Virus record (IMG/VR): IMGVR_UViG_2585427657_000002
Source: a virus
Lineage: Duplodnaviria; Heunggongvirae; Uroviricota; Caudoviricetes
Reading direction: 5' to 3' (one strand)
Length of the DNA stretch: 44,098 bases
In this document: positions 1-24,859 of the stretch, piece by piece
Layout: every line of letters begins with the position of its first letter
Position numbering within the stretch: position 1 is the first letter of the stretch
Notes under the pieces: generated by a model
The model's database searches: none
Told to the model about the DNA's origin: nothing
Seen by the model: only the letters and a program-made list of their open reading frames with translations
Made by a program: the position numbers and the translations under genes

Positions 1-428
1 CTATGCTGTTTTGATATCTACGATAATCCAGTCTTTACCACGATCATCATTGTATCGGTCGGTCATTTTTCTGGATTTATGACCTAACAACTTTTGCGTA
101 TCCAGACCCTGTTCCCGATATAACCGTTCTGACAGAGATCGCTGCTCATGAAATGTGGGCGCAGTTCCTGGCTCCCATTTTATGCCACATTTTTCCCTGG
201 CCTTTTTAAAAGCCGTTGTAAGAGTATTTGCAGACACCTGGTCTCCTCTGTTTGCTTGAGAGGTAGTGTGACGGTAATGGACCAGATATTTACTAACAAC
301 AGCATCCCTGCACTGAGATATAACTTCACGAAGGGTAATATTCAGAGCATCGCATTTCAGGTTAAGCGGAATAGCAAGTTTTGAACCGGTTTTTTCCTGA
401 GTAATGTGCAACATGTCGTCCCAGATAT
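1..428 (-). pseudogene. int: lambda-type tyrosine integrase, C-terminal ~140 codons only
   Basis: ORF 1..414 (-) carries the catalytic C-terminus of lambda-family Int (...PTFHEQRSLSERLYREQ...LLGHKS...DRYNDDRGKDW); the frame runs upstream straight into the IS911 terminus at 429 and no N-terminal part is present elsewhere. Confidence 0.8.
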
Positions 429-458
429 TGAAGTGGTCAACAAAAACTGGCCACCGAG

Positions 459-1606
<1,148 letters not shown>

Positions 1607-1664
1607 TATGGCACCTGTGTTGTTCTGAGGTGAGCATATCACCTCTGTTCAGGTGGCCAAATTC

Positions 1665-2018
1665 TGGCCACACTCACGTGGGTGGACTGGTATAACAATC
1701 GACGATTGCTGGAAAGGCAGGGCCATACTCCTCCGGCAGAAGCAGAAAAAGCTTATTATGCTTCCATCGGAAACGATGATCTGGCAGCCTGAGTTCACAG
1801 ATAAAACACTCTCCAGGAAACCCGGGGCGGTTCACAGTAAACCACTTCTGGCCACACTCACGTGGGTGGACTGGTATAACAATCGACGATTGCTGGAAAG
1901 GCAGGGCCATACTCCTCCGGCAGAAGCAGAAAAAGCTTATTATGCTTCCATCGGAAACGATGATCTGGCAGCCTGAGTTCACAGATAAAACACTCTCCAG
2001 GAAACCCGGGGCGGTTCA
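1665..2018 (+). repeat. Two tandem copies of a 170-bp IS3-type right-end fragment, separated by 14 bp
   Basis: 1665..1834 and 1849..2018 are identical; each encodes a transposase C-terminus (...LTWVDWYNNRRLLERQGHTPPAEAEKAYYASIGNDDLAA) and ends in ...CCCGGGGCGGTTCA, an IS3-type terminus. Confidence 0.7.
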
Positions 2019-2043
2019 TACAGAGAGCAAAAGAGAAACGCCG

Positions 2044-2625
2044 ATGAACAACTCATGGTGGCAGGAACTAATGCATTTTTTCCTGCAAGGAATGACACTT
2101 AAACAGTTGATTCATATGCTAATCATCCTGATCATATTGATTATTGTTATGCCGGTAAGCGTAAAAGAATGGATAAACCTGCATAGTCCAGAAATCCTTC
2201 CTCATTACTGGATGTATTACATCCTGTTGTTTTGCGTTAGCTATGTGCTTAACGGCGTTGTTAATTCCGCTTATCACGCTGTGACTGAAAGAATTGAGGT
2301 ATTCGCTGCTCAGAAGCGCAAATCTAAAGAAGAAAAATATGTGCAAGATTTGTTTGATTCGTTAACTCTTGGAGAAAGAGCGTATTTGGCATTCGCTGTA
2401 GCCGCTAATAACCAGCTACAAACGGAAAAGGGCGCTCATGAATCAATTTCATTGCTCAAAAAAGGACTCCTCGTTCGAAGGCCTCCTGCTGTTGGATATC
2501 CTGATACCGACCGTTTCGTTATCCCTGAAAGCTATAGACATGAGTGCTACATTAGGTTTGCCGGGAAGGCAGACAGCCTTATGGATGAACTTATCGCTCA
2601 GGATAAGCATGGCAAAAACAAGTAA
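2044..2625 (+). CDS. sieB: superinfection exclusion protein B
   Basis: Starts MNNSWWQELMHFFLQGMTLKQLIHMLIILIILIIVMPVSVKEW...; N-terminal membrane helices then soluble domain; convergent with N as in lambda. ORF-track start 1942 is read-through from the IS fragment. Confidence 0.7.
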   Translation: MNNSWWQELMHFFLQGMTLKQLIHMLIILIILIIVMPVSVKEWINLHSPEILPHYWMYYILLFCVSYVLNGVVNSAYHAVTERIEVFAAQKRKSKEEKYVQDLFDSLTLGERAYLAFAVAANNQLQTEKGAHESISLLKKGLLVRRPPAVGYPDTDRFVIPESYRHECYIRFAGKADSLMDELIAQDKHGKNK

Positions 2626-2641
2626 TTAGCAAATGAATTTA

Positions 2642-2914
2642 TCATCTCGCCGTCAGTTGTTTTGATTTCCGGTAGCCTGCCGCGTAAAGAGCTACGTTCG
2701 GAAGACAAGTTGAACCTTCATATTTTCTGGTCAACGTTGTCAGAGTTATCACTTCTGCTCTCATTGCTGGTTTGAGCTTGCATTGCAAGACCACTCGTGA
2801 AGGGGTTGGCCTGTGTAGCTTGTCGGAGCTGATCGCCTCCTGACTTTGCAGATTTGCGCGACGAGCTCTACGGCGAGAAGCTGCGGTGCCTTTAAATTCT
2901 GTTTTTCTGGACAT
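2642..2914 (-). CDS. N: N-type transcription antiterminator (arginine-rich motif protein)
   Basis: 90-aa product from ATG at 2914 with strong upstream GGGAGGAA; N-terminal arginine-rich motif MSRKTEFKGTAASRRRARRANLQ; first leftward gene beyond the presumed pL region. Confidence 0.6.
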   Translation of the reverse strand: MSRKTEFKGTAASRRRARRANLQSQEAISSDKLHRPTPSRVVLQCKLKPAMRAEVITLTTLTRKYEGSTCLPNVALYAAGYRKSKQLTAR

Positions 2915-3099
2915 GGATTCCTCCCGAATAAACTTTGGCGATGCAATCTCGAAGCTCCTCCTGAGACGGTTGCTTCGGCATTGCATCCCACAGCTTATGT
3001 GGTTGGGTGATCTGGCTTTTCAGCCACGTAGTCGAGAGTCGACGTTGTTTAAAGAGCCTGCCAGTCTGTTCCATTTGGCTTCCAGCGTCCTGCTGACGG

Positions 3100-3320
3100 T
3101 TAAATAGTACGATATGTACTTTACAAGATCAATACAATTTGTTGTAAGTTGGCGTGGTTTTTTATAACGCTTTGTATTTAATAGTGTTGTTTTTTAGCGT
3201 GGATGTATTGCCTCGGCGATGTAAGGAGAGATCAGAATTGCGTGGTTTAGTGGGTTGCATCTATTTATTTTTCAATAAATATAATTGGTTATGTGTTTTT
3301 AGGTGGGCGAACGTGAGGCA
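3100..3320 (-). promoter_or_regulatory. Putative pL / oL operator region, with nutL expected between it and N
   Basis: AT-rich intergenic block between the cI-operon terminator and N; contains TGTACTTTACAAG and TTACAA...TTGTAA motifs resembling motifs in the cI-cro intergenic region. Exact operators not resolved. Confidence 0.3.
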
Positions 3321-3324
3321 AAGA

Positions 3325-3348
3325 AAACCCGGCGCTGAGGCCGGGTTG
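3325..3348 (-). terminator. Intrinsic terminator ending the cI operon
   Basis: Minus-strand hairpin CCCGGCCTCAGCGCCGGG followed by TTTTCTTT, immediately after the stop of the 250-aa gene. Confidence 0.6.
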
Positions 3349-3350
3349 TA

Positions 3351-4103
3351 TTATGCTGCAAGTCTCTTAACCCAAGTCTCTCTTTTGGAGAATGGTAGAA
3401 CTTGGCTTGATTCATGGAAGAGTAAGGAGAGTTGTTGCATTTGATCACCAATTGCTTCGCTGTCTATAACAACAAATCTGTTGTTATACTCCTCACTTGA
3501 AGCTTTAAGATCAATTAGTTTCCCAAGCAATGAGTAAGCACTATTCCAGCTTCCTCCGTGTTTCACGCTTGATGTAAAAACGTATTTAGGTATGTCGGTT
3601 TTTATTGTTACAGGGACGGTAATTTGATGTCCACTCAAGCCATATACGTTTTCACGAAGAGAAAGTGCGTCTCTAAGCTCTGTGTGATATAGATAATCAA
3701 TAACCATACTTTCAAACTTTTCAGCTTGAACTGGCTGATACCAGTCTAACGACAAAGTTGATGCGAGTATACCAGCTCTAATTATGTTCGATGTAATCGC
3801 ACCGACATCCTTTTCTGTTGCCCAAGCAATGATTTCTCCTCGAGCATTGAGTTCTGCGCCTTCTTTAAGCAGTAATTGTCGTATCTCATCAAGTCGTTTT
3901 TTGGTAAGCGAGATCCCTCTTGCCTCCATATTCATTAAGGCATCGCATCTGTCACTAACTAAATACCTACCATTGACTTCACGGATAAAGGCACCGACAT
4001 GCTCTCCATCATCACAGTAAGTGAATGGACTGATAATTCTCAAGGTCTTGCCTATTGGATGGCATTCGAAACCTAGTTGTGAGATCACTGTTGAGCACAT
4101 CAT
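3351..4103 (-). CDS. Hypothetical protein (250 aa), distal gene of cI-linked two-gene operon
   Basis: ATG ATG start overlaps the stop of the upstream 185-aa gene by 4 nt; no transmembrane segment or motif I can assign; followed by terminator. Confidence 0.7.
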   Translation of the reverse strand: MMCSTVISQLGFECHPIGKTLRIISPFTYCDDGEHVGAFIREVNGRYLVSDRCDALMNMEARGISLTKKRLDEIRQLLLKEGAELNARGEIIAWATEKDVGAITSNIIRAGILASTLSLDWYQPVQAEKFESMVIDYLYHTELRDALSLRENVYGLSGHQITVPVTIKTDIPKYVFTSSVKHGGSWNSAYSLLGKLIDLKASSEEYNNRFVVIDSEAIGDQMQQLSLLFHESSQVLPFSKRETWVKRLAA

Positions 4104-10968: not shown

Positions 10969-12051
10969 TTAGAACTGATAAACCAGACCTACAGCGACGA
11001 TGTCGTCGGTATCAATACCAGCTGTTTTGGTAAACTTACTATCGTCAATTAAGTTGATTTTGTAATCAACAAAAGTGGACATGTTTTTATTAAAGTAGTA
11101 AGTAGCACCGACATCGACATACTTGACTAAGTCTCGGTCACCATGAACACCAAGGTCTTTACCTTTTGACTGAAGGTAAGCAACAGATGGACGCAGACCG
11201 AAGTCAAACTGATATTGTGCTACTGCTTCAAAGTTTTGTGCTTTGTTTGCAATATGGTTATTACCAAAAACGGTCATATTCTGAGTTTCAGAATATGTGG
11301 TAGCCAGATAGATATTGTTCGCATCATATTTCAGGCCTGCAGCCCATACTTCCGCATTTTTGCCGGAGGCATTGAATTTGCTCTTACCATAGGCGACCTG
11401 ACCGTCAGTGCGATCTGATTTAGCATAGGTTGCACCCACGCCGAATCCTTCATACTCATAAGTAGTGGAGAAACCGAAACCATCACCATTGGCTTCAGTT
11501 ACGTCAGTGCGGTCATTTTTACCCTGATACTGAGCAGCAAAGTTCAGGCCATCGACCAGACCAAAGAAGTCGTTGTTACGATAAGTTGCAACACCAGTAG
11601 TGCGACCAGTCATGAACACATCTGTTTGGGTCCAGGTATCACCACCGAATTCTGGCAGAACGTCAGTCCACGCACCGATGTCGTATGCTACACCGTAGTT
11701 ACGGCCGTAATCGATTGAGCCGTAATCACCAAATTTCAGGCCTGCAAATGCAAGACGGGTTTTGTCTTTGGAAGAACCTTGAGATTCAGCACGGTTGCCT
11801 TTGAATTCATATTCCCACTGACCGAAACCAGTCAGTTGATCGTTGATTTGGGTTTCACCTTTGAAGCCAAGACGGGCATAAGTAGTATCACCATCATCTG
11901 CATCATTAGAGGAGAAGTAGTGCTTGGCATTAACTTTCCCGTATAGATCCAGCTTGTTACTGTCTTTATTATAAATTTCAGCTGCCTGAGCAGACATCGC
12001 CATCAGTACTGATGCAGCTACAGCAGAAATTGCCACTGTTAATTTTTTCAT
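10969..12051 (-). CDS. nmpC: Outer-membrane general porin, phage-encoded OmpC-family (NmpC/Lc type)
   Basis: Signal peptide [23 protein letters not shown] then AEIYNKD...; C-terminal ...VAVGLVYQF; opposite orientation to phage late genes. Start taken as ATG 12051, not the longer ORF-track start. Confidence 0.9.
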
Positions 12052-12477
12052 TGTACGCCCTTTTTTTGAACTTTTATTAAAAAATGATGTCACTGCGCGA
12101 TAAATATTCATCTAATCAATGTGATTATTTCAAGATGTAAGTTTTAGTTTCTCATTTAATTTGTGAAGTAGATCTCTATTTTTATCTGAACCTTTTCTAT
12201 CTAATCCTATTCATGGCTCTTGTCTGAACAAAAATAAATCTATTAGCTAATTTATATTAATGGCACTTATTTATAAGTGCTCTATAATTCTTTAGCTTAA
12301 TTTAAACAAACTAAAAATAACATCGGAAATTATTAACTGGTTATTTGTTGAAGTTTTCTTATGCATTTGTGGTGGTGTTTTGAACACTCGGTGGCATTCT
12401 CACAAATATCATTTAGTAGTTTACGTACGTAAAAAATTGGTTATGCTGTTAAGAGTGGTTACTTCGTCACACAGCTT

Positions 12478-12510
12478 AAACCCGCCGTCGAGCGGGTTTT
12501 TCCATTTTTT
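12478..12510 (+). terminator. Intrinsic terminator upstream of the lysis cassette (candidate tR')
   Basis: Hairpin CCCGC-CGTCGA-GCGGG followed by TTTTTCCATTTTTT, about 130 bp before the holin start. Confidence 0.55.
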
Positions 12511-12639
12511 GAGTCTCGATATTAGCTGATAACCCAATACCTGAGTTATTCACTGACTCCGAATCTGTTACGTTTCTGCCTTTATTGCGATACGTAGTAT
12601 CCCCTTAATTTACACCCGCTTTGTCTGCGAGGTGGGGTT

Positions 12640-12855
12640 ATGAAATCCATGGATAAGTTAACAACGGGTGTCGCCTATGGTACCTCAGCAGGTAGTGCCG
12701 GGTACTGGTTTTTACAGTTGCTCGATAAAGTCACGCCCTCACAGTGGGCGGCAATAGGTGTGCTGGGTAGCCTGGTATTTGGCCTGCTGACGTACCTGAC
12801 AAACCTTTATTTCAAGATTAAAGAAGATAAGCGCAAGGCTGCGAGAGGTGAATAA
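12640..12855 (+). CDS. S: Holin, phage-21 pinholin type
   Basis: 71 aa, [71 protein letters not shown]; two TM segments, dual-start motif MKSM. Confidence 0.9.
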
Positions 12856-13352
12856 TGCCTCCATCATTACGAAAAGCCGTTGCTGCTGCTATTGGTGGCG
12901 GAGCAATTGCTATAGCATCAGTGTTAATCACTGGCCCAAGTGGTAACGATGGTCTGGAAGGTGTCAGCTACATACCATACAAAGATATTGTTGGTGTATG
13001 GACTGTATGTCACGGGCATACAGGAAAAGACATCATGCTCGGTAAAACGTATACCAAAGCAGAATGCAAAGCCCTCCTGAATAAAGACCTTGCCACGGTC
13101 GCCAGACAAATTAACCCGTACATCAAAGTCGATATACCGGAAACAATGCGCGGCGCTCTTTACTCATTCGTTTACAACGTGGGTGCTGGCAATTTCAGAA
13201 CATCGACGCTTCTTCGCAAAATAAACCAGGGCGATATCAAAGGCGCATGTGATCAGCTACGTCGCTGGACATATGCTGGCGGTAAGCAATGGAAAGGTCT
13301 CATGACTCGTCGTGAGATTGAGCGTGAAATCTGTTTGTGGGGTCAGCAATGA
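12855..13352 (+). CDS. R: SAR endolysin (lysozyme with signal-anchor-release N-terminus)
   Basis: 165 aa; N-terminal weakly hydrophobic SAR segment [20 protein letters not shown] followed by lysozyme domain; overlaps holin stop. Confidence 0.9.
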
Positions 13353-13810
13353 ACAGAGTAACCGCGATTATCTCCGCTCTGGTTATCTGCATCATCGTCT
13401 GCCTGTCATGGGCTGTTAATCATTACCGTGATAACGCCATTACCTACAAAGCCCAGCGCGACAAAAATGCCAGAGAACTGACGCTGGCGAACGCGGCAAT
13501 TACTGACATACAGATGCGTCAGCGTGATGTTGCTGCGCTCGATGCAAAATACACGAAGGAGTTAGCTGATGCGAAAGCTGAAAATGATGCTCTGCGTGAT
13601 GATGTTGCCGCTGGTCGTCGTCGGTTGCACATCAAAGCAGTCTGTCAGTCAGTGCGTGAAGCCACCACCGCCTCCGGCGTGGATAATGCAGCCTCCCCCC
13701 GACTGGCAGACACCGCTGAACGGGATTATTTCACCCTCAGAGAGAGGCTGATCACTATGCAAAAACAACTGGAAGGAACCCAGAAGTATATTAATGAGCA
13801 GTGCAGATAG
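13349..13810 (+). CDS. Rz: Rz i-spanin
   Basis: 153 aa, [38 protein letters not shown]...; N-terminal TM then coiled-coil; ATGA overlap with R. Confidence 0.9.
13569..13751 (+). CDS. Rz1: Rz1 o-spanin lipoprotein, embedded in the +1 frame of Rz
   Basis: [20 protein letters not shown]... lipobox, proline-rich mature part; entirely nested within Rz. Confidence 0.85.
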
Positions 13811-13841
13811 AGCTGCCCATATCGATGGGCAACTCATGCAA

Positions 13842-14135
13842 TTATTGTGAGCAATACACACGCGCTTCCAGCGGAGTATAAATGCCTAAAGTAATAAAAC
13901 CGAGCAATCCATTTACGAATGTTTGCTGGGTTTCTGTTTTAACAACATTTTCTGCACCACCACAAATTTTTGCTGCATCGACAGTTTTCTTCTGCCCAAT
14001 TCCCGAAACGAAGAAATGATGGGTGATGGTTTCCTTTGGTGTTACTGCTGTAGGTTTGTTTCCAACAGTAAACGTCTGTTGAGCACATCCTGTAATAAGC
14101 ATTGCCAGAGCGGCAGAAAACAACATTTTTTTCAT
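13842..14135 (-). CDS. bor: Bor lipoprotein (serum-resistance moron)
   Basis: 97 aa from MKKMLFSAALAMLITGCAQQTFTV... (lipobox LITGC). Confidence 0.9.
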   Translation of the reverse strand: MKKMLFSAALAMLITGCAQQTFTVGNKPTAVTPKETITHHFFVSGIGQKKTVDAAKICGGAENVVKTETQQTFVNGLLGFITLGIYTPLEARVYCSQ

Positions 14136-14615
14136 CTTATTATCCTGCATTGTTAAAAACGGCAGAATCCTATGTGACAACAATTAAACGATAGTTAAAT
14201 GGATTGATGAAAATTAAAACTACACAGGTGGGCTCAGACTATTGGAGGAAGTTGGGGACACTCAGAATCCTGTGGAATGAAATAAACCGGTCTATCCGTC
14301 CATTACCCTTTTAGCTGCGCTGTATCGTCGCCGTATTCCCGCATTAACCATGACCGTAGCCCGACGGGGAATTCCTTCTGCGTGAGTGTGCGGGAATAAT
14401 TAAAAACGATGCACACCGGGTTTTTACCGCGTTAATGATTCGCGGGTTTATCCCGGTGCGATGGTGGAAGAAACAGGAAGCTGTATTACAGAAAGTGCTA
14501 CTACTGTATCCCGATGCGATGTATGTAATGTGAGTCAGATAATGGCACAGGATGTGGTGATGTGGCAGTCTGGAACACAGGATATATTGTCAGAATAAGA
14601 CCCGTAGGAATAAAA

Positions 14616-14942
14616 ATGAAAAGACGCCTTTTACTACTTTTTCTGTTATCTGTCCTGGCAGTGGGATGCTCGCAGCAAAAAGCTGATGAGCCCCGGCAAT
14701 TAGTGACGGTGTATCCACGATATCCGGAATATGCTGCAGCAAATTATATCAAGGGGCTGGTTGAGGTTAAGTTCGATATTGGTGCTGATGGGACTGTGAC
14801 ACGGATCGTTTTTCTCCGCTCAGAGCCTCATAATTTGTTTCGTGATGAAGTGGTGAAGGCCATGGCGAAATGGCGATTTGAAAAGAATCGCCCCTGTCAG
14901 GGAGTGAAGAGACAATTTATCTTTACGCCGTCACGTCCTTGA
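14616..14942 (+). CDS. Lipoprotein with TonB C-terminal-like domain (moron)
   Basis: MKRRLLLLFLLSVLAVGCSQQ signal/lipobox, then VYPRYPEYAAANYIKGLVEVKFDIGADGTVTRIVFLRSEPHNLFRDEVVKAMAKWRFE, which matches the TonB_C pattern (YP..A...G.V.V.F.I..DG.V..I.......F...V..A...WR). Confidence 0.7.
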   Translation: MKRRLLLLFLLSVLAVGCSQQKADEPRQLVTVYPRYPEYAAANYIKGLVEVKFDIGADGTVTRIVFLRSEPHNLFRDEVVKAMAKWRFEKNRPCQGVKRQFIFTPSRP

Positions 14943-15064
14943 TGCTTCCAGGTAGAGAGGGGCTGGAAGCAGGAGAAAAATGAAAGAGCCAGCGGTTATA
15001 TTTTTGTCATGGCTGACGAGGAATGATGGAAGAAGGCGTTGTATGCCACACAACGCCTCACTGT

Positions 15065-15418
15065 TCATTTCTTCTTTTTCTCTGGTGGAACCCGATGAAT
15101 AAGAGTTGCACTGGTTTCCGATGAGATGGCGATATACTCGGGCAAAGTATGCTGGCAGTTTTCCAACTGGTCAAAAATACCTGCTCTCGTCTGTTGCAAT
15201 GCCTGCAGCATGCGGCGGCAATGCGCCTTGCTTTTACTAACCATCTTTCCTTCCTCTATCAGTCGCTGCGTGAACTCATCATGGAATACCAGGTAAATGC
15301 GGATGTTATCGGTTTTGGCTACGCAGCATAGTACAAAACGGACAGGTGCATCCCGGGACGGGGGAGGCGTCACATGTCCCTGTGATGGTTGTTCCGGGTA
15401 ATGTACTGTGTGGGGCAT
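15065..15418 (-). CDS. Hypothetical ORF (117 aa), coding status uncertain
   Basis: Open frame only; overlaps the small secretory ORF 15306..15557 and a + strand 60-aa ORF; identical copy at 19418..19771. Confidence 0.25.
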   Translation of the reverse strand: MPHTVHYPEQPSQGHVTPPPSRDAPVRFVLCCVAKTDNIRIYLVFHDEFTQRLIEEGKMVSKSKAHCRRMLQALQQTRAGIFDQLENCQHTLPEYIAISSETSATLIHRVPPEKKKK

Positions 15419-15557
15419 AAAAATGTCCGATAATTTTACTTTCTACCGCAGTTAGTTGATTCGTTGGTCCTGGTAGCACATTGGGCGAGGATTTAAATGC
15501 CAGGCAACTGAAGGATGATGTCGCAAGGGAGATAGCGAGAATATTTCTGATTTTCAT
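15306..15557 (-). CDS. Small predicted secreted Cys-rich protein (83 aa)
   Basis: MKIRNILAISLATSSFSCLA-FKSS signal peptide; mature part has four Cys (C..C.C..C near the C-terminus); identical copy at 19659..19910. Confidence 0.3.
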   Translation of the reverse strand: MKIRNILAISLATSSFSCLAFKSSPNVLPGPTNQLTAVESKIIGHFYAPHSTLPGTTITGTCDASPVPGCTCPFCTMLRSQNR

Positions 15558-15705
15558 TTGATGATGCCTCTGTGTGAAATGACGGTAAACGACGCACTTG
15601 TGCCGGCACATAATAGCAAGCACCATAATAGATCAGATTCGATTCTTGCTGTAAGTGATAATTATTCTCGTTTTCGGGTCCTTTCCGTCGATCCAACAGG
15701 TTACG

Positions 15706-15717
15706 GGGCGGCGACCT
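15706..15717 (+). other. cos: cosN cohesive-end site GGGCGGCGACCT (copy 1)
   Basis: ...ATCCAACAGGTTACG|GGGCGGCGACCT|CGCGG... matches the lambda right-end/left-end junction as recalled; cosB-like inverted GTCCGACATGAAAG / CATGTCGGGC elements lie between it and Nu1. Confidence 0.85.
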
Positions 15718-15893
15718 CGCGGTTTTTCACTATTTATGAAAATTTTTCAGGGAAAATCGTGTCGGTACTTCTCGAATATAACTTTTTGTTTTTTTTAATA
15801 TTGCATCCGTAAAGGTCCGACATGAAAGTGTCCGAAAATGCCTTTTTCTGGCGTTTTCATGTCGGGCCTTGTATTTGATAATGGGTTGTTTTC

Positions 15894-16158
15894 ATGAAGG
15901 TTAATAAAAAGAGGCTTGCCGAAATTTTCAACGTGGACCCGCGGACGATTGAACGCTGGCAGTCTCAGGGACTCCCTTGCGCCTCCAAAGGTAGTAAGGG
16001 CATTGAATCTGTATTTGATACTGCCATGGCAATTCAGTGGTATGCGCAGAGGGAAACTGATATCGAAAACGAAAAGCTCCGCAAAGAACTGGACGATTTG
16101 CGTGCGGCAGCGGAGTCAGATTTACAACCCGGCACCATTGACTATGAACGCTACCGGC
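15894..16158 (+). pseudogene. nu1: Terminase small subunit Nu1, 5' copy truncated after codon ~88 by a rearrangement junction
   Basis: [33 protein letters not shown]...TIDYERYR then sequence switches to the reverse complement of the porin upstream region. Confidence 0.7.
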
Positions 16159-16323
16159 ACATCTTGAAATAATCACATTGATTAGATGAATATTTATCGC
16201 GCAGTGACATCATTTTTTAATAAAAGTTCAAAAAAAGGGCGTACAATGAAAAAATTAACAGTGGCAATTTCTGCTGTAGCTGCATCAGTACTGATGGCGA
16301 TGTCTGCTCAGGCAGCTGAAATT
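16159..16323. repeat. Fold-back arm: reverse complement of 11974..12138 forming a perfect palindrome with 16327..16491
   Basis: 16159..16323 reads as the exact reverse complement of the porin 5' end and upstream region; symmetry centre at about 16325 (GCTGAAATT-ATA-AATTTCAGC). Confidence 0.85.
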
Positions 16324-16830
16324 ATAAATTTCAGCTGCCTGAGCAGACATCGCCATCAGTACTGATGCAGCTACAGCAGAAATTGCCACTGTTAATTTTT
16401 TCATTGTACGCCCTTTTTTTGAACTTTTATTAAAAAATGATGTCACTGCGCGATAAATATTCATCTAATCAATGTGATTATTTCAAGATGTAAGTTTTAG
16501 TTTCTCATTTAATTTGTGAAGTAGATCTCTATTTTTATCTGAACCTTTTCTATCTAATCCTATTCATGGCTCTTGTCTGAACAAAAATAAATCTATTAGC
16601 TAATTTATATTAATGGCACTTATTTATAAGTGCTCTATAATTCTTTAGCTTAATTTAAACAAACTAAAAATAACATCGGAAATTATTAACTGGTTATTTG
16701 TTGAAGTTTTCTTATGCATTTGTGGTGGTGTTTTGAACACTCGGTGGCATTCTCACAAATATCATTTAGTAGTTTACGTACGTAAAAAATTGGTTATGCT
16801 GTTAAGAGTGGTTACTTCGTCACACAGCTT

Positions 16831-16863
16831 AAACCCGCCGTCGAGCGGGTTTTTCCATTTTTT
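16831..16863 (+). terminator. Duplicate of terminator 12478..12510
   Basis: Identical sequence at offset +4353. Confidence 0.5.
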
Positions 16864-16992
16864 GAGTCTCGATATTAGCTGATAACCCAATACCTGAGTT
16901 ATTCACTGACTCCGAATCTGTTACGTTTCTGCCTTTATTGCGATACGTAGTATCCCCTTAATTTACACCCGCTTTGTCTGCGAGGTGGGGTT

Positions 16993-17208
16993 ATGAAATC
17001 CATGGATAAGTTAACAACGGGTGTCGCCTATGGTACCTCAGCAGGTAGTGCCGGGTACTGGTTTTTACAGTTGCTCGATAAAGTCACGCCCTCACAGTGG
17101 GCGGCAATAGGTGTGCTGGGTAGCCTGGTATTTGGCCTGCTGACGTACCTGACAAACCTTTATTTCAAGATTAAAGAAGATAAGCGCAAGGCTGCGAGAG
17201 GTGAATAA
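16993..17208 (+). CDS. S: Holin (duplicate copy)
   Basis: Identical to 12640..12855. Confidence 0.85.
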
Positions 17209-17705
17209 TGCCTCCATCATTACGAAAAGCCGTTGCTGCTGCTATTGGTGGCGGAGCAATTGCTATAGCATCAGTGTTAATCACTGGCCCAAGTGGTAAC
17301 GATGGTCTGGAAGGTGTCAGCTACATACCATACAAAGATATTGTTGGTGTATGGACTGTATGTCACGGGCATACAGGAAAAGACATCATGCTCGGTAAAA
17401 CGTATACCAAAGCAGAATGCAAAGCCCTCCTGAATAAAGACCTTGCCACGGTCGCCAGACAAATTAACCCGTACATCAAAGTCGATATACCGGAAACAAT
17501 GCGCGGCGCTCTTTACTCATTCGTTTACAACGTGGGTGCTGGCAATTTCAGAACATCGACGCTTCTTCGCAAAATAAACCAGGGCGATATCAAAGGCGCA
17601 TGTGATCAGCTACGTCGCTGGACATATGCTGGCGGTAAGCAATGGAAAGGTCTCATGACTCGTCGTGAGATTGAGCGTGAAATCTGTTTGTGGGGTCAGC
17701 AATGA
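17208..17705 (+). CDS. R: SAR endolysin (duplicate copy)
   Basis: Identical to 12855..13352. Confidence 0.85.
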
Positions 17706-18163
17706 ACAGAGTAACCGCGATTATCTCCGCTCTGGTTATCTGCATCATCGTCTGCCTGTCATGGGCTGTTAATCATTACCGTGATAACGCCATTACCTAC
17801 AAAGCCCAGCGCGACAAAAATGCCAGAGAACTGACGCTGGCGAACGCGGCAATTACTGACATACAGATGCGTCAGCGTGATGTTGCTGCGCTCGATGCAA
17901 AATACACGAAGGAGTTAGCTGATGCGAAAGCTGAAAATGATGCTCTGCGTGATGATGTTGCCGCTGGTCGTCGTCGGTTGCACATCAAAGCAGTCTGTCA
18001 GTCAGTGCGTGAAGCCACCACCGCCTCCGGCGTGGATAATGCAGCCTCCCCCCGACTGGCAGACACCGCTGAACGGGATTATTTCACCCTCAGAGAGAGG
18101 CTGATCACTATGCAAAAACAACTGGAAGGAACCCAGAAGTATATTAATGAGCAGTGCAGATAG
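17702..18163 (+). CDS. Rz: Rz i-spanin (duplicate copy)
   Basis: Identical to 13349..13810. Confidence 0.85.
17922..18104 (+). CDS. Rz1: Rz1 o-spanin (duplicate copy)
   Basis: Identical to 13569..13751. Confidence 0.8.
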
Positions 18164-18194
18164 AGCTGCCCATATCGATGGGCAACTCATGCAA

Positions 18195-18488
18195 TTATTG
18201 TGAGCAATACACACGCGCTTCCAGCGGAGTATAAATGCCTAAAGTAATAAAACCGAGCAATCCATTTACGAATGTTTGCTGGGTTTCTGTTTTAACAACA
18301 TTTTCTGCACCACCACAAATTTTTGCTGCATCGACAGTTTTCTTCTGCCCAATTCCCGAAACGAAGAAATGATGGGTGATGGTTTCCTTTGGTGTTACTG
18401 CTGTAGGTTTGTTTCCAACAGTAAACGTCTGTTGAGCACATCCTGTAATAAGCATTGCCAGAGCGGCAGAAAACAACATTTTTTTCAT
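18195..18488 (-). CDS. bor: Bor lipoprotein (duplicate copy)
   Basis: Identical to 13842..14135. Confidence 0.85.
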   Translation of the reverse strand: MKKMLFSAALAMLITGCAQQTFTVGNKPTAVTPKETITHHFFVSGIGQKKTVDAAKICGGAENVVKTETQQTFVNGLLGFITLGIYTPLEARVYCSQ

Positions 18489-18968
18489 CTTATTATCCTG
18501 CATTGTTAAAAACGGCAGAATCCTATGTGACAACAATTAAACGATAGTTAAATGGATTGATGAAAATTAAAACTACACAGGTGGGCTCAGACTATTGGAG
18601 GAAGTTGGGGACACTCAGAATCCTGTGGAATGAAATAAACCGGTCTATCCGTCCATTACCCTTTTAGCTGCGCTGTATCGTCGCCGTATTCCCGCATTAA
18701 CCATGACCGTAGCCCGACGGGGAATTCCTTCTGCGTGAGTGTGCGGGAATAATTAAAAACGATGCACACCGGGTTTTTACCGCGTTAATGATTCGCGGGT
18801 TTATCCCGGTGCGATGGTGGAAGAAACAGGAAGCTGTATTACAGAAAGTGCTACTACTGTATCCCGATGCGATGTATGTAATGTGAGTCAGATAATGGCA
18901 CAGGATGTGGTGATGTGGCAGTCTGGAACACAGGATATATTGTCAGAATAAGACCCGTAGGAATAAAA

Positions 18969-19295
18969 ATGAAAAGACGCCTTTTACTACTTTTTCTGTT
19001 ATCTGTCCTGGCAGTGGGATGCTCGCAGCAAAAAGCTGATGAGCCCCGGCAATTAGTGACGGTGTATCCACGATATCCGGAATATGCTGCAGCAAATTAT
19101 ATCAAGGGGCTGGTTGAGGTTAAGTTCGATATTGGTGCTGATGGGACTGTGACACGGATCGTTTTTCTCCGCTCAGAGCCTCATAATTTGTTTCGTGATG
19201 AAGTGGTGAAGGCCATGGCGAAATGGCGATTTGAAAAGAATCGCCCCTGTCAGGGAGTGAAGAGACAATTTATCTTTACGCCGTCACGTCCTTGA
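18969..19295 (+). CDS. TonB-C-like lipoprotein (duplicate copy)
   Basis: Identical to 14616..14942. Confidence 0.65.
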   Translation: MKRRLLLLFLLSVLAVGCSQQKADEPRQLVTVYPRYPEYAAANYIKGLVEVKFDIGADGTVTRIVFLRSEPHNLFRDEVVKAMAKWRFEKNRPCQGVKRQFIFTPSRP

Positions 19296-20058
19296 TGCTT
19301 CCAGGTAGAGAGGGGCTGGAAGCAGGAGAAAAATGAAAGAGCCAGCGGTTATATTTTTGTCATGGCTGACGAGGAATGATGGAAGAAGGCGTTGTATGCC
19401 ACACAACGCCTCACTGTTCATTTCTTCTTTTTCTCTGGTGGAACCCGATGAATAAGAGTTGCACTGGTTTCCGATGAGATGGCGATATACTCGGGCAAAG
19501 TATGCTGGCAGTTTTCCAACTGGTCAAAAATACCTGCTCTCGTCTGTTGCAATGCCTGCAGCATGCGGCGGCAATGCGCCTTGCTTTTACTAACCATCTT
19601 TCCTTCCTCTATCAGTCGCTGCGTGAACTCATCATGGAATACCAGGTAAATGCGGATGTTATCGGTTTTGGCTACGCAGCATAGTACAAAACGGACAGGT
19701 GCATCCCGGGACGGGGGAGGCGTCACATGTCCCTGTGATGGTTGTTCCGGGTAATGTACTGTGTGGGGCATAAAAATGTCCGATAATTTTACTTTCTACC
19801 GCAGTTAGTTGATTCGTTGGTCCTGGTAGCACATTGGGCGAGGATTTAAATGCCAGGCAACTGAAGGATGATGTCGCAAGGGAGATAGCGAGAATATTTC
19901 TGATTTTCATTTGATGATGCCTCTGTGTGAAATGACGGTAAACGACGCACTTGTGCCGGCACATAATAGCAAGCACCATAATAGATCAGATTCGATTCTT
20001 GCTGTAAGTGATAATTATTCTCGTTTTCGGGTCCTTTCCGTCGATCCAACAGGTTACG

Positions 20059-20070
20059 GGGCGGCGACCT
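20059..20070 (+). other. cos: cosN (copy 2)
   Basis: Identical to 15706..15717 with the same flanks. Confidence 0.8.
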
Positions 20071-20246
20071 CGCGGTTTTTCACTATTTATGAAAATTTTT
20101 CAGGGAAAATCGTGTCGGTACTTCTCGAATATAACTTTTTGTTTTTTTTAATATTGCATCCGTAAAGGTCCGACATGAAAGTGTCCGAAAATGCCTTTTT
20201 CTGGCGTTTTCATGTCGGGCCTTGTATTTGATAATGGGTTGTTTTC

Positions 20247-20795
20247 ATGAAGGTTAATAAAAAGAGGCTTGCCGAAATTTTCAACGTGGACCCGCGGACG
20301 ATTGAACGCTGGCAGTCTCAGGGACTCCCTTGCGCCTCCAAAGGTAGTAAGGGCATTGAATCTGTATTTGATACTGCCATGGCAATTCAGTGGTATGCGC
20401 AGAGGGAAACTGATATCGAAAACGAAAAGCTCCGCAAAGAACTGGACGATTTGCGTGCGGCAGCGGAGTCAGATTTACAACCCGGCACCATTGACTATGA
20501 ACGCTACCGGCTCACAAAAGCGCAGGCAGATGCGCAGGAACTGAAAAATGCCCGTGAAGACGGAGTAGTGCTGGAAACTGAACTGTTTACCTTCATTCTG
20601 CAACGTGTGGCACAGGAGATTTCGGGGATACTTGTGCGTGTGCCGTTGACATTACAGCGTAAATATCCGGACATTTCACCATCACACCTTGATGTGGTGA
20701 AAACTGAAATCGCGAAAGCCTCCAATGTTGCAGCTAAGGCCGGTGAAAACGTGGGCGGGTGGATCGATGATTTCAGACGCGCAGAAGGCAGCTAA
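20247..20795 (+). CDS. nu1: Terminase small subunit Nu1 (full length, in duplicated copy B)
   Basis: 182 aa; ...[54 protein letters not shown]...; winged-helix N-terminus. Confidence 0.85.
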
Positions 20796-21358
20796 TGCAG
20801 CCGGTGCGATAGCTACAGGGCTTTTATCTCTCATTATTCCTGTTCCACTGACGACAGTTCAGTGGGCCAATAAACATTATTACCTTCCTAAAGAGTCGTC
20901 TTATACCCCGGGGCGATGGGAAACACTGCCGTTTCAGGTTGGCATCATGAACTGTATGGGCAACGATCTGATTCGCACGGTTAACCTGATTAAATCTGCC
21001 CGTGTTGGTTATACAAAGATGTTGCTGGGAGTGGAGGCTTATTTTATTGAGCATAAATCACGCAACAGCCTTCTTTTTCAGCCCACGGACTCAGCTGCTG
21101 AAGATTTTATGAAATCTCATGTTGAGCCAACGATAAGGGATGTTCCTGCATTGCTGGAGCTGGCTCCATGGTTCGGAAGAAAACACCGCGATAATACGCT
21201 CACCCTGAAGCGTTTTTCCTCCGGTGTGGGGTTCTGGTGTCTGGGTGGTGCGGCAGCAAAAAACTACCGTGAAAAATCCGTGGATGTGGTCTGTTATGAC
21301 GAGCTTTCCTCGTTCGAACCGGATGTTGAAAAAGAGGGTTCGCCAACCCTGCTGGGGG
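20725..21358 (+). pseudogene. A: Terminase large subunit A, 5' fragment ending at a rearrangement junction
   Basis: Identical to the first ~210 codons of 22889..24859, then joins sequence equivalent to 15426 onward (...PTLLG then GTCCGATAATTTTAC...). Confidence 0.7.
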
Positions 21359-21638
21359 TCCGATAATTTTACTTTCTACCGCAGTTAGTTGATTCGTTGG
21401 TCCTGGTAGCACATTGGGCGAGGATTTAAATGCCAGGCAACTGAAGGATGATGTCGCAAGGGAGATAGCGAGAATATTTCTGATTTTCATTTGATGATGC
21501 CTCTGTGTGAAATGACGGTAAACGACGCACTTGTGCCGGCACATAATAGCAAGCACCATAATAGATCAGATTCGATTCTTGCTGTAAGTGATAATTATTC
21601 TCGTTTTCGGGTCCTTTCCGTCGATCCAACAGGTTACG

Positions 21639-21650
21639 GGGCGGCGACCT
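21639..21650 (+). other. cos: cosN (copy 3)
   Basis: Identical 12-mer and flanks. Confidence 0.8.
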
Positions 21651-21826
21651 CGCGGTTTTTCACTATTTATGAAAATTTTTCAGGGAAAATCGTGTCGGTA
21701 CTTCTCGAATATAACTTTTTGTTTTTTTTAATATTGCATCCGTAAAGGTCCGACATGAAAGTGTCCGAAAATGCCTTTTTCTGGCGTTTTCATGTCGGGC
21801 CTTGTATTTGATAATGGGTTGTTTTC

Positions 21827-22092
21827 ATGAAGGTTAATAAAAAGAGGCTTGCCGAAATTTTCAACGTGGACCCGCGGACGATTGAACGCTGGCAGTCTCA
21901 GGGACTCCCTTGCGCCTCCAAAGGTAGTAAGGGCATTGAATCTGTATTTGATACTGCCATGGCAATTCAGTGGTATGCGCAGAGGGAAACTGATATCGAA
22001 AACGAAAAGCTCCGCAAAGAACTGGACGATTTGCGTGCGGCAGCGGAGTCAGATTTACAACCCGGCACCATTGACTATGAACGCTACCGGCT
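21827..22092 (+). pseudogene. nu1: Nu1 5' fragment (third copy), truncated after codon ~88
   Basis: ...TIDYERYRL then joins sequence equivalent to 15576 onward. Confidence 0.7.
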
Positions 22093-22222
22093 GAAATGAC
22101 GGTAAACGACGCACTTGTGCCGGCACATAATAGCAAGCACCATAATAGATCAGATTCGATTCTTGCTGTAAGTGATAATTATTCTCGTTTTCGGGTCCTT
22201 TCCGTCGATCCAACAGGTTACG

Positions 22223-22234
22223 GGGCGGCGACCT
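22223..22234 (+). other. cos: cosN (copy 4, the one contiguous with the intact packaging/head operon)
   Basis: Identical 12-mer and flanks, about 190 bp upstream of the intact Nu1 at 22411. Confidence 0.85.
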
Positions 22235-22410
22235 CGCGGTTTTTCACTATTTATGAAAATTTTTCAGGGAAAATCGTGTCGGTACTTCTCGAATATAACT
22301 TTTTGTTTTTTTTAATATTGCATCCGTAAAGGTCCGACATGAAAGTGTCCGAAAATGCCTTTTTCTGGCGTTTTCATGTCGGGCCTTGTATTTGATAATG
22401 GGTTGTTTTC

Positions 22411-22959
22411 ATGAAGGTTAATAAAAAGAGGCTTGCCGAAATTTTCAACGTGGACCCGCGGACGATTGAACGCTGGCAGTCTCAGGGACTCCCTTGCGCC
22501 TCCAAAGGTAGTAAGGGCATTGAATCTGTATTTGATACTGCCATGGCAATTCAGTGGTATGCGCAGAGGGAAACTGATATCGAAAACGAAAAGCTCCGCA
22601 AAGAACTGGACGATTTGCGTGCGGCAGCGGAGTCAGATTTACAACCCGGCACCATTGACTATGAACGCTACCGGCTCACAAAAGCGCAGGCAGATGCGCA
22701 GGAACTGAAAAATGCCCGTGAAGACGGAGTAGTGCTGGAAACTGAACTGTTTACCTTCATTCTGCAACGTGTGGCACAGGAGATTTCGGGGATACTTGTG
22801 CGTGTGCCGTTGACATTACAGCGTAAATATCCGGACATTTCACCATCACACCTTGATGTGGTGAAAACTGAAATCGCGAAAGCCTCCAATGTTGCAGCTA
22901 AGGCCGGTGAAAACGTGGGCGGGTGGATCGATGATTTCAGACGCGCAGAAGGCAGCTAA
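22411..22959 (+). CDS. nu1: Terminase small subunit Nu1
   Basis: 182 aa, identical to 20247..20795; followed by overlapping terminase A. Confidence 0.9.
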
Positions 22960-24859
22960 TGCAGCCGGTGCGATAGCTACAGGGCTTTTATCTCTCATTA
23001 TTCCTGTTCCACTGACGACAGTTCAGTGGGCCAATAAACATTATTACCTTCCTAAAGAGTCGTCTTATACCCCGGGGCGATGGGAAACACTGCCGTTTCA
23101 GGTTGGCATCATGAACTGTATGGGCAACGATCTGATTCGCACGGTTAACCTGATTAAATCTGCCCGTGTTGGTTATACAAAGATGTTGCTGGGAGTGGAG
23201 GCTTATTTTATTGAGCATAAATCACGCAACAGCCTTCTTTTTCAGCCCACGGACTCAGCTGCTGAAGATTTTATGAAATCTCATGTTGAGCCAACGATAA
23301 GGGATGTTCCTGCATTGCTGGAGCTGGCTCCATGGTTCGGAAGAAAACACCGCGATAATACGCTCACCCTGAAGCGTTTTTCCTCCGGTGTGGGGTTCTG
23401 GTGTCTGGGTGGTGCGGCAGCAAAAAACTACCGTGAAAAATCCGTGGATGTGGTCTGTTATGACGAGCTTTCCTCGTTCGAACCGGATGTTGAAAAAGAG
23501 GGTTCGCCAACCCTGCTGGGGGATAAACGTATTGAGGGCTCTGTATGGCCAAAATCCATTCGCGGCTCGACGCCTAAAATCAAAGGCTCCTGCCAGATCG
23601 AAAAAGCCGCTAACGAGTCGGCACACTTCATGCGTTTTTATGTGCCCTGTCCGCACTGTGGGGAGGAGCAGTATCTGAAATTTGGCGATGATGCCTCGCC
23701 TTTCGGTCTTAAGTGGGAGAAGAATAAGCCAGAAAGTGTTTTCTACCTTTGTGAGCATCATGGCTGTGTGATCCATCAGTCTGAGCTTGACCAGAGTAAC
23801 GGGCGGTGGATCTGTGAAAACACGGGCATGTGGACCCGTGACGGCCTGATGTTTTTCAGCGCCCGGGGTGATGAAATTCCGCCGCCGCGCTCCATCACTT
23901 TCCATATCTGGACGGCGTACAGTCCGTTCACCACCTGGGTACAGATTGTCTATGACTGGCTGGATGCACTGAAAGATCCCAACGGCCTGAAAACCTTTGT
24001 GAACACCACGCTGGGCGAGACCTGGGAAGAGGCTGTGGGCGAAAAACTCGATCACCAGGTGCTGATGGATAAGGTTGTGCGTTACACGGCGGCGGTGCCT
24101 GCCCGGGTGGTTTATCTGACGGCGGGCATTGACTCGCAGCGAAACCGTTTTGAGATGTATGTCTGGGGATGGGCTCCGGGAGAGGAAGCCTTTCTGGTGG
24201 ATAAAATCATCATTATGGGGCGTCCCGATGAGGAAGAGACGCTGTTACGTGTGGATGCGGCGATCAACAAAAAATACCGCCATGCAGACGGAACCGAAAT
24301 GACCATTTCCCGTGTCTGCTGGGACATCGGGGGGATCGATGGCGAAATCGTTTATCAGAGGTCAAAAAAACACGGTGTTTTCCGGGTGCTGCCGGTAAAA
24401 GGCGCGTCTGTCTATGGCAAGCCGGTGATCACCATGCCGAAAACCCGCAATCAGCGGGGCGTTTATCTGTGTGAAGTGGGGACGGACACCGCAAAAGAAA
24501 TTCTCTATGCCCGTATGAAAGCCGAGCCCACGCCTGCGGATGAAGCCACGTCGTATGCCATCCGTTTTCCTGATGATCCGGAGATTTTTTCGCAGACAGA
24601 GGCGCAGCAACTGGTCGCGGAAGAGCTTGTGGAGAAGTGGGAAAAAGGAAAGATGCGTCTGCTGTGGGATAACAAAAAGCGGCGTAACGAAGCGCTGGAC
24701 TGCCTGGTGTATGCCTACGCGGCATTACGTGTGTCCGTGCAACGCTGGCAGCTTGATCTGGCTGTACTGGCAAAATCCCGGGAAGAAGAGACGACCCGGC
24801 CAACCCTTAAAGAACTGGCAGCGAAGCTGTCCGGAGGAGTGAATGGTTACAGTCGCTGA
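22889..24859 (+). CDS. A: Terminase large subunit A
   Basis: ...[32 protein letters not shown]...[14 protein letters not shown]...[19 protein letters not shown]... lambda gpA pattern; start could alternatively be the ATG at 22931 (MISDAQ...). Confidence 0.9.

What the first reader, a model, noticed from the sequence alone, without database searches (positions are those of the whole stretch)
1665..2018. Tandem duplicate of a 170-bp IS3-type end fragment next to the truncated IS911
Two identical 170-bp copies of the 3' end of an IS3-family element (last ~40 codons of the transposase plus terminus ...CCCGGGGCGGTTCA) sit head-to-tail, separated by 14 bp (CAGTAAACCACTTC) that resembles a degenerate IS911 inverted-repeat tip. 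The second copy ends 25 bp upstream of the sieB start codon and creates the spurious N-terminal extension of the sieB ORF in the six-frame track. This is a nested IS scar or a local mis-assembly.
Basis: seen in the sequence. Interest (0 to 1): 0.35.

Follow-up and report, generated by a model that had tools for sequence, protein, structure and literature searches.

The report
Spurious IS-end duplicate: assembly artefact
The two identical 170-bp insertion-sequence end fragments are really in this sequence, but 18 other complete assemblies of this strain line (E. coli Nissle 1917 and strains derived from it) lack both, so they are almost certainly an assembly error in the 2014 GenBank record and not biology.

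Summary
A perfect 173-nt direct repeat lies at 1662-1834 and 1846-2018. Each copy holds the last 170 nt of an IS629/IS1203-type IS3-family element.

The window is E. coli Nissle 1917 GenBank CP007799.1. The ORF that spans the repeat junctions is exactly ECOLIN_06500 and is on record from that one contig only.

The 14-nt spacer is not a degenerate tip. It is the exact terminal 14 nt (positions 15 to 2) of the left inverted repeat of the neighbouring IS911-like element, ISEc52. That element is therefore complete but split, not truncated.

Deleting two 171-nt blocks (1665-1835 and 1849-2019) reproduces the independent Nissle assembly CP022686.1 base for base. Eighteen Nissle-line complete assemblies show that shorter form.

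None of the four junctions occurs in 5,426 RefSeq E. coli genomes, GTDB representative genomes, JGI metagenomes or IMG/VR.

Every other difference between this window and CP022686.1 is also extra sequence in the window:
- 6,517 nt of re-traversed prophage DNA
- six single-C insertions that break the cI repressor gene
- one extra T and one 5-nt duplication

Published work already reports a spurious IS in irp2 of CP007799.1.

Verdict: mis-assembly, confidence about 0.9. It is not a nested IS scar, and interest is low.

The parts
1..427 (-). 3' remnant of a lambda-type integrase gene (int'), the prophage end next to icd
   Evidence: ORF 1..414 (137 aa) is exactly AID78247.1 'integrase [E. coli Nissle 1917]'. 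RefSeq annotates it as a partial tyrosine recombinase next to icd.
428..1664 (-). ISEc52 (IS911-like, IS3 family), from the right-inverted-repeat tip (TGAAGTGGTCAAC...) to position 15 from the left-inverted-repeat tip (...GGCCAAATTC)
   Evidence: RefSeq product 'IS3-like element ISEc52 family transposase'. OrfB and OrfA match NF033516 IS3 family transposase at 3.8e-90 and 6.3e-15. It is about 95% identical to the IS911 copy in phage Sf6. Together with 1836-1848 and base 2020 it equals the 1250-bp element of ATCC 25922 with 0 mismatches.
1665..1835 (+). Spurious block 1: the last 170 nt of an IS629/IS1203-type element (positions 1141-1310 of 1310) plus one C
   Evidence: Absent from 18 Nissle-line assemblies. 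Removing it restores CP022686.1 exactly. It is 169/170 identical to the IS copies of FY26, H106, WG5 and 2013C-4830; the single difference is A for T at 1719.
1836..1848 (-). ISEc52 left-inverted-repeat terminal nucleotides 14 to 2 (AGTAAACCACTTC), cut off from the body of the IS by block 1
   Evidence: Alignments with Nissle CP022686, ATCC 25922, H106 and WG5 all read ...GGCCAAATTCAGTAAACCACTTCA.
1849..2019 (+). Spurious block 2: the same 170 nt plus one T
   Evidence: As for block 1. The variant base is at 1903.
2020..2043 (+). Terminal A of ISEc52, then the native phage sequence upstream of sieB (CAGAGAGCAAAAGAGAAACGCCG)
   Evidence: CP022686 reads ...CCACTTCACAGAGAGC. Uninterrupted phage ev017 reads ...ATTCACCCCTACAGAGAGC.
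2044..2625 (+). sieB (193 aa), a genuine gene
   Evidence: An exact protein match in a 531-member SieB cluster. Annotated 'super-infection exclusion protein B'.
1653..1976 (+). Spurious ORF (107 aa), annotated in GenBank as hypothetical protein ECOLIN_06500. It reads across junctions J1, J2 and J3.
   Evidence: Exact match to AID78250.1. It is a cluster of one member, seen on one contig of 5,441,200 bp.

Best explanation
The tandem pair is an assembly artefact of GenBank CP007799.1, the first (2014) 'complete' genome of E. coli Nissle 1917.

The real locus reads: icd | truncated int | one complete 1250-bp ISEc52 (IS911-like) | CAGAGAGC... | sieB. In the deposited sequence two 171-nt blocks were written into the last 15 nt of the ISEc52 left inverted repeat. 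Each block is the 170-nt right end of an IS629/IS1203-type element plus one base. Each sits at a TTC^A site, and the two sites are 13 nt apart.

Shown: the blocks are absent from every other assembly of the strain line. Removing them restores the independent sequence exactly. Every other difference in the window is also extra sequence in this record.

Inferred: the 170 nt came from reads of other loci, because real Nissle chromosomes hold two similar stretches elsewhere. They were probably inserted during repeat resolution, gap closing or consensus building. One insertion may have been placed at both of two equivalent TTC^A alignment positions. The exact software step is not known.
For: 1. The window is CP007799.1. 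The 107-aa ORF spanning J1-J3 is exactly AID78250.1 / ECOLIN_06500, seen on one contig of 5,441,200 bp only.
2. Eighteen other Nissle-line complete assemblies match window 1-3400 at 99.7-100% identity (17 at 100%) in about 3058 bp, which is 342 = 2 x 171 bp shorter. They include CP022686, CP035486, CP058217, CP080246, CP148105, CP171242, CP172017, CM187577 and CM189242/3.
3. Deleting 1665-1835 and 1849-2019 reproduces CP022686.1 with 0 mismatches over 4558 bp.
4. ATCC 25922 carries the identical ISEc52 as a simple insertion with a 3-bp ATT duplication at this site and no IS629-type fragment.
5. No contiguous match to J1, J2 or J3 exists in 5,426 RefSeq E. coli genomes. Pattern scans for J1/J3, J4 or J2/J4 found nothing relevant in GTDB representatives, JGI metagenomes (39, 56, 58) or IMG/VR (38, 40).
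6. The exact 170-nt sequence is 100% identical in only one RefSeq genome, an APEC strain, and not in Nissle.
7. Elsewhere in the same window the record holds only extra sequence relative to CP022686.1. There are 6,517 nt of perfect re-traversals, including a 170-nt inverted piece. Six single-C insertions break cI. There is one extra T and one 5-nt duplication. The rest is 100% identical.
8. Literature. CP007799.1 is 5,441,200 bp against 5,055,316 bp for CP022686.1 (PMC9049610; PMC9801561). It shows irp2 disrupted by an insertion sequence, whereas resequencing found irp2 intact (PMC8636617). It contains four fim operons and three flu genes (PMC9049610).
Against: No raw reads of the 2014 project could be examined, so a real change private to the sequenced stock is not formally excluded. 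All four junctions are clean. Both copies end exactly at the IS terminus CA-3', as a true transposase-made joint would. No real locus supplies any junction, so a simple graph mis-join between genuine k-mers does not explain them, and the artefact mechanism remains conjecture. Several of the 18 comparison assemblies come from one study, so the number of independent confirmations is nearer ten than 18.
Confidence: 0.9

Rival explanations
1. A real rearrangement private to the isolate sequenced in 2014. Under this reading, an IS629-type right-end fragment was copied twice into the ISEc52 inverted repeat, by aberrant one-ended transposition or by template switching at the two TTC^A sites.
For: The fragment ends exactly at the IS terminus and begins with TG. 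IS629-type and IS911-type elements do occur nested in real genomes such as WG5 and H106. Real Nissle chromosomes carry two similar stretches that could act as donors (versus 62).
Against: There is no left inverted repeat: the left boundary is internal, at IS position 1141 of 1310. There is no 3-4 bp target duplication: the flanks are TTC/CAG and TTC/TAC. No Nissle assembly holds a 170/170 identical donor. Two identical events 13 nt apart would be needed. Eighteen assemblies lack them. The same record carries many other extra-sequence errors.
Confidence: 0.05
2. An old nested IS scar. Under this reading, an IS629-type element upstream of sieB was truncated by an IS911-type insertion, and the remnant was then tandemly duplicated.
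For: Prophages of FY26 and NCTC11151 do carry an IS629-type element directly upstream of sieB.
Against: In those genomes the IS end abuts ATTCACCCCTACAGAG, which is a different junction. The ancestor-like ATCC 25922 prophage and all other Nissle assemblies have an intact ISEc52 and zero copies of the fragment here, so there is nothing to duplicate. A tandem duplication cannot yield a first copy that directly follows ...AAATTC while the spacer carries the rest of the inverted repeat (sequence logic).
Confidence: 0.02
3. A variant of the artefact explanation: the fragment comes from foreign DNA or from a reference sequence (another E. coli strain) rather than from Nissle reads.
For: The exact 170 nt, with A at position 55, is found in no Nissle assembly and in only one RefSeq genome, APEC E12053. 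The base after copy 2 (T) matches native phage sequence (..CCCCTACAGAG) rather than the Nissle junction.
Against: One mismatch may simply be a consensus error in a record that has many. The T has a 1-in-4 chance of matching by accident. Pattern scans for an IS629-type end joined to the sieB leader (J4) found it in no GTDB representative genome, IMG/VR contig or JGI metagenome contig; in RefSeq E. coli the nearest IS-to-sieB joints seen, as in FY26, sit 9 nt further upstream. J4 itself had no dedicated search of RefSeq E. coli.
Confidence: 0.1

Closest known systems
Repeat-associated mis-assembly in early short-read 'finished' genomes, specifically the known defects of CP007799.1
   Same: Extra IS sequence that resequencing does not confirm, as with the spurious IS in irp2 (PMC8636617). 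The record is 386 kb longer than later assemblies. Prophage segments are duplicated in the same window.
   Different: This particular error at ECOLIN_06500 is not mentioned in any of the four papers I read. It is unusual in placing two copies of a partial IS end inside another IS's inverted repeat, through junctions that no real locus supplies.
IS629 / IS1203 (IS3 family) right end
   Same: It is 169/170 identical to the last 170 nt of complete 1310-bp copies, including the transposase C-terminus and the terminus ...CCCGGGGCGGTTCA.
   Different: Only 13% of the element is present. There is no left end, no target duplication and no transposase.
ISEc52 / IS911 (IS3 family)
   Same: The real neighbour is a complete 1250-bp ISEc52 with TGAAGTGG... 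inverted repeats, OrfA and OrfB. In ATCC 25922 it has a 3-bp duplication.
   Different: In this record its left inverted repeat is interrupted after position 15 by block 1, and its terminal A is separated by block 2. That makes it look truncated.
Genuine nested IS629-in-IS911 remnants (E. coli C/WG5, H106)
   Same: The same two IS types lie side by side.
   Different: Those loci have different junctions and a different order. They recur in about 25 independent genomes. The junctions seen here occur nowhere else.

Membership tests
Genuine IS3-family (IS629/IS1203) insertion | Both terminal inverted repeats (5'-TG ... CA-3') are present | tested here: not met
   Only the right end is present. 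The left boundary is at IS position 1141 of 1310, an internal site.
Genuine IS3-family (IS629/IS1203) insertion | A 3-4 bp direct duplication of the target flanks the element | tested here: not met
   Copy 1 has flanks TTC / CAG and copy 2 has TTC / TAC. Relative to the uninterrupted sequence, each insert is 170 nt plus one unexplained base.
Genuine IS3-family (IS629/IS1203) insertion | The element is present at the locus in independent assemblies of the same strain | tested here: not met
   It is absent from 18 Nissle-line complete assemblies.
Tandem duplication by slippage or unequal exchange | The progenitor carries one copy of the unit, and the product has a single new junction | tested here: not met
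   The other Nissle assemblies carry zero copies at this locus. The window shows four new junctions.
Assembly artefact | Not reproduced by independent assemblies of the same strain, and removing it restores their sequence | tested here: met
   Removing 2 x 171 nt gives 0 mismatches to CP022686.1 over 4558 bp. Eighteen assemblies agree.
Assembly artefact | Other unsupported extra sequence occurs in the same record | tested here: met
   There are 6,517 nt of re-traversals, six C insertions in cI, one extra T and one 5-nt duplication, all extra in the window. The literature reports a spurious IS in irp2.
Assembly artefact | No raw reads span the junctions | not testable with these tools
NZ_CP007799.1 is not in the annotated collection.
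ISEc52 / IS911-like element (the real neighbour) | A complete element with both inverted repeats, an OrfA/OrfB transposase and a 3-bp target duplication | tested here: met
   In ATCC 25922 it is 1250 bp with an ATT duplication, and the Nissle copy is identical. OrfB matches NF033516 at 3.8e-90.

The most novel reading that the evidence does not exclude
The stock sequenced in 2014 really carried two 171-bp copies of an IS629-type right end on either side of the last 13 nt of the ISEc52 inverted repeat. They would have been made by an aberrant one-ended IS3-family strand transfer, or by a template switch that prefers TTC^A sites inside another IS's terminus.
Probability: 0.04. Interest if true: 0.3.

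Novelty: not a real feature. Interest (0 to 1): 0.05.

Why it matters
There is little biological consequence. The practical point is that CP007799.1 is still used as the Nissle 1917 reference in papers dated up to 2026.

At this locus the record does three misleading things:
- It invents a gene, ECOLIN_06500.
- It makes a complete ISEc52 look truncated.
- It gives sieB a false N-terminal extension.

Nearby, the same record breaks the prophage cI repressor gene with six extra C bases and duplicates the lysis and terminase genes. Work on Nissle prophage 3, such as phage-immunity studies or engineering of the prophage, should use a later assembly such as CP022686.1.

Tried and rejected
1. Simple 184-bp tandem duplication. 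Rejected: it cannot place copy 1 directly after ...AAATTC, and the progenitor has no copy at all.
2. Transposition of the 170-nt piece as a mini-element. Rejected: it has no left inverted repeat (by eye its left end matches the right-end repeat at only about 6 of 14 positions) and no target duplication.
3. IS911-type targeting of the GAAGTGG motif that lies 3 nt before the fragment's left boundary inside IS629. The geometry does not fit, because the boundary lies on the wrong side of the motif.
4. Searches for each junction in RefSeq E. coli, GTDB representatives, JGI metagenomes and IMG/VR. None were found.
5. A 97% hit to junction J2 in strain 2013C-4830. It was a chance flank, CAGTAACCAGCTT, and not an IS911 tip.
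6. The look-up of encoding contigs for the 107-aa ORF returned nothing. NZ_CP007799.1 is not in the annotated collection. The Reister 2014 paper and the variant table of PMC9049610 are not held. So neither the assembly method nor read-level evidence could be checked.
7. Locating the two genuine IS629-type right-end stretches in real Nissle chromosomes. I could only count them by subtraction: 3 places with the fragment in the query, 1 without it, and 2 with the 157 nt upstream of it. Their positions and flanks remain unknown, so the source of the spurious copies is not pinned down.

Full report
**1. Observation**

The repeat is real in the window. The repeat finder and Tandem Repeats Finder report a perfect direct repeat of 173 nt at 1662-1834 and 1846-2018, with a period of 184. 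The part derived from an insertion sequence is 170 nt: 1665-1834 is identical to 1849-2018. A 26-nt probe from it matches only these two places, with none expected by chance.

Each copy carries the last 41 sense codons of a transposase, a TGA stop and 42 nt up to the terminus ...CCCGGGGCGGTTCA. Copy 2 ends 25 nt before the sieB ATG at 2044. The ORF 1942..2625 is SieB with a false N-terminal extension.

**2. What the pieces are**

- The 170 nt align at 169/170 with the right end of complete 1310-bp IS3-family elements of the IS629/IS1203 type. These are positions 1141-1310 in strains FY26, H106, WG5 and 2013C-4830. The one difference is A for T at window 1719 and 1903.
- The element to the left (428-1664, minus strand) is annotated in RefSeq as ISEc52. 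It is an IS911-like IS3-family element, about 95% identical to the IS911 copy in phage Sf6.
- In other genomes its left inverted repeat reads, in window orientation...GGCCAAATTCAGTAAACCACTTCA. The 14-nt 'spacer' CAGTAAACCACTTC is therefore positions 15 to 2 of that repeat, exactly. It is not a degenerate copy. The IS is not truncated in this record; copy 1 splits it.

**3. Where the window comes from**

The 107-aa ORF 1653..1976 reads across three of the four junctions. It is exactly AID78250.1, 'hypothetical protein ECOLIN_06500 [Escherichia coli Nissle 1917]'. It is a cluster of one member, seen on a single contig of 5,441,200 bp. That length is the size of GenBank CP007799.1 (PMC9049610). 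The window is the lambdoid 'prophage 3' of Nissle 1917, next to icd.

**4. Comparison with independent assemblies**

- Eighteen other complete assemblies of Nissle 1917 or its laboratory derivatives match window 1-3400 at 99.7-100% identity (17 at 100%), but in about 3058 bp. That is 342 = 2 x 171 bp shorter.
- Deleting 1665-1835 (the fragment plus C) and 1849-2019 (the fragment plus T) reproduces CP022686.1 with no mismatch over 4558 bp.
- The real locus is icd | int' | complete ISEc52 | CAGAGAGC... | sieB.
- The related prophage of ATCC 25922 has the identical ISEc52 as a simple insertion between ral and sieB, with a 3-bp ATT duplication. So the intact IS is the ancestral state.
- In Nissle the IS additionally borders two deletions. 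One runs from its right inverted repeat into int. The other removes 11 nt at its left inverted repeat.

**5. The junctions exist nowhere else**

- No contiguous match to J1, J2 or J3 was found in 5,426 complete RefSeq E. coli genomes. Every apparent full-length hit was two separate pieces or a chance flank.
- Pattern scans, each aimed at some of the junctions (J1/J3, J4 or J2/J4), found nothing relevant in GTDB representative genomes, JGI metagenomes or IMG/VR.
- The exact 170-nt sequence is 100% identical in only one RefSeq genome, an avian pathogenic strain, and not in Nissle.
- By subtraction, real Nissle chromosomes hold two similar stretches elsewhere, and one of them also has the adjoining upstream IS sequence. 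I could not locate them.

**6. The rest of the window points the same way**

I aligned the whole window to CP022686.1. Every difference is extra sequence in the window:

- The two 171-nt blocks.
- Six single-C insertions within 110 bp. These break the 231-aa cI repressor gene into fragments. That gene is intact in the other assemblies, and Bury et al. cloned the pr gene and found it active (PMC5987069).
- One extra T in a T-run.
- A 5-nt CAGGT duplication.
- 6,517 nt in which the path re-traverses prophage DNA already covered, including a 170-nt inverted piece.

The literature agrees. CP007799.1 is 386 kb longer than CP022686.1. It shows four fim operons and three flu genes. It shows irp2 disrupted by an insertion sequence, although resequencing found irp2 intact (PMC8636617).

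**7. Mechanism**

- As biology, the structure fails the tests for an IS3-family insertion. It has no left end, no target duplication and no donor copy, and it would need two events 13 nt apart.
- It also fails the tests for a tandem duplication, because the progenitor has no copy at this locus.
- As an artefact, what is shown is that the blocks are unsupported by every independent assembly, and that this record systematically contains surplus sequence.
- What is inferred is the route. Both blocks sit at TTC^A sites 13 nt apart. That is what one would expect if a single spurious insertion were placed at two equivalent alignment positions and both were kept.
- I could not test this route, because neither the reads nor the methods paper are available.

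**8. Verdict**

Confidence in the artefact is about 0.9. The remaining probability is mostly a real change private to the sequenced stock. This is not a real genomic feature, and interest is low. Its only value is as a warning about a reference record that is still widely used.

Noticed in passing
window 11968-23522: Large perfect repeats. Relative to CP022686.1 the window runs forward, inserts a 170-nt inverted piece (16159-16327), re-traverses 4.2 kb, then repeats 735-nt and 1431-nt stretches. That is 6,517 extra nt (4353+1580+584) duplicating the lysis genes, iss and the small terminase gene. The other Nissle, CFT073 and ATCC 25922 assemblies listed among the top hits all lack it.
   Followed up: yes
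window 5104, 5128, 5139, 5148, 5160, 5213: Six single-C insertions within 110 bp, relative to CP022686.1. They break the prophage cI ('LexA family') repressor gene into fragments of 136, 72, 50 and 67 aa. The 231-aa protein WP_001302016.1 is intact in Nissle CP022686, ATCC 25922 and FY26.
   Followed up: yes
window 5443 and 8078: One extra T in a T-run, and a 5-nt tandem duplication (CAGGT), relative to CP022686.1. The latter lies around the end of the ren gene, in the ren-ninB region.
   Followed up: partly
L001 4172 (FY26) and L006 4251 (ATCC 25922), both equivalent to the sequence just before window 2019: Two different IS3-family elements have an end abutting the very same nucleotide (|ATTCACCCCTACAGAG) upstream of sieB: the IS629-type element in FY26 and ISEc52 in ATCC 25922. 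This may be a shared ATT target hot spot in the ral-sieB spacer.
   Followed up: no
window 1-2043 versus L006 (ATCC 25922): Real biology of the locus. In Nissle the ISEc52 borders a deletion that removes everything from the N-terminal part of int through xis, exo, bet, gam, kil, cIII, ea10 and ral. It also borders an 11-nt deletion on its other side. This fits the reported inability to induce prophage 3.
   Followed up: partly
window 10969-12111 (minus strand): An ompC-like porin gene, and further on an iss/bor lipoprotein gene, sit as morons in the late region of the prophage. This is ordinary for lambdoid prophages.
   Followed up: no
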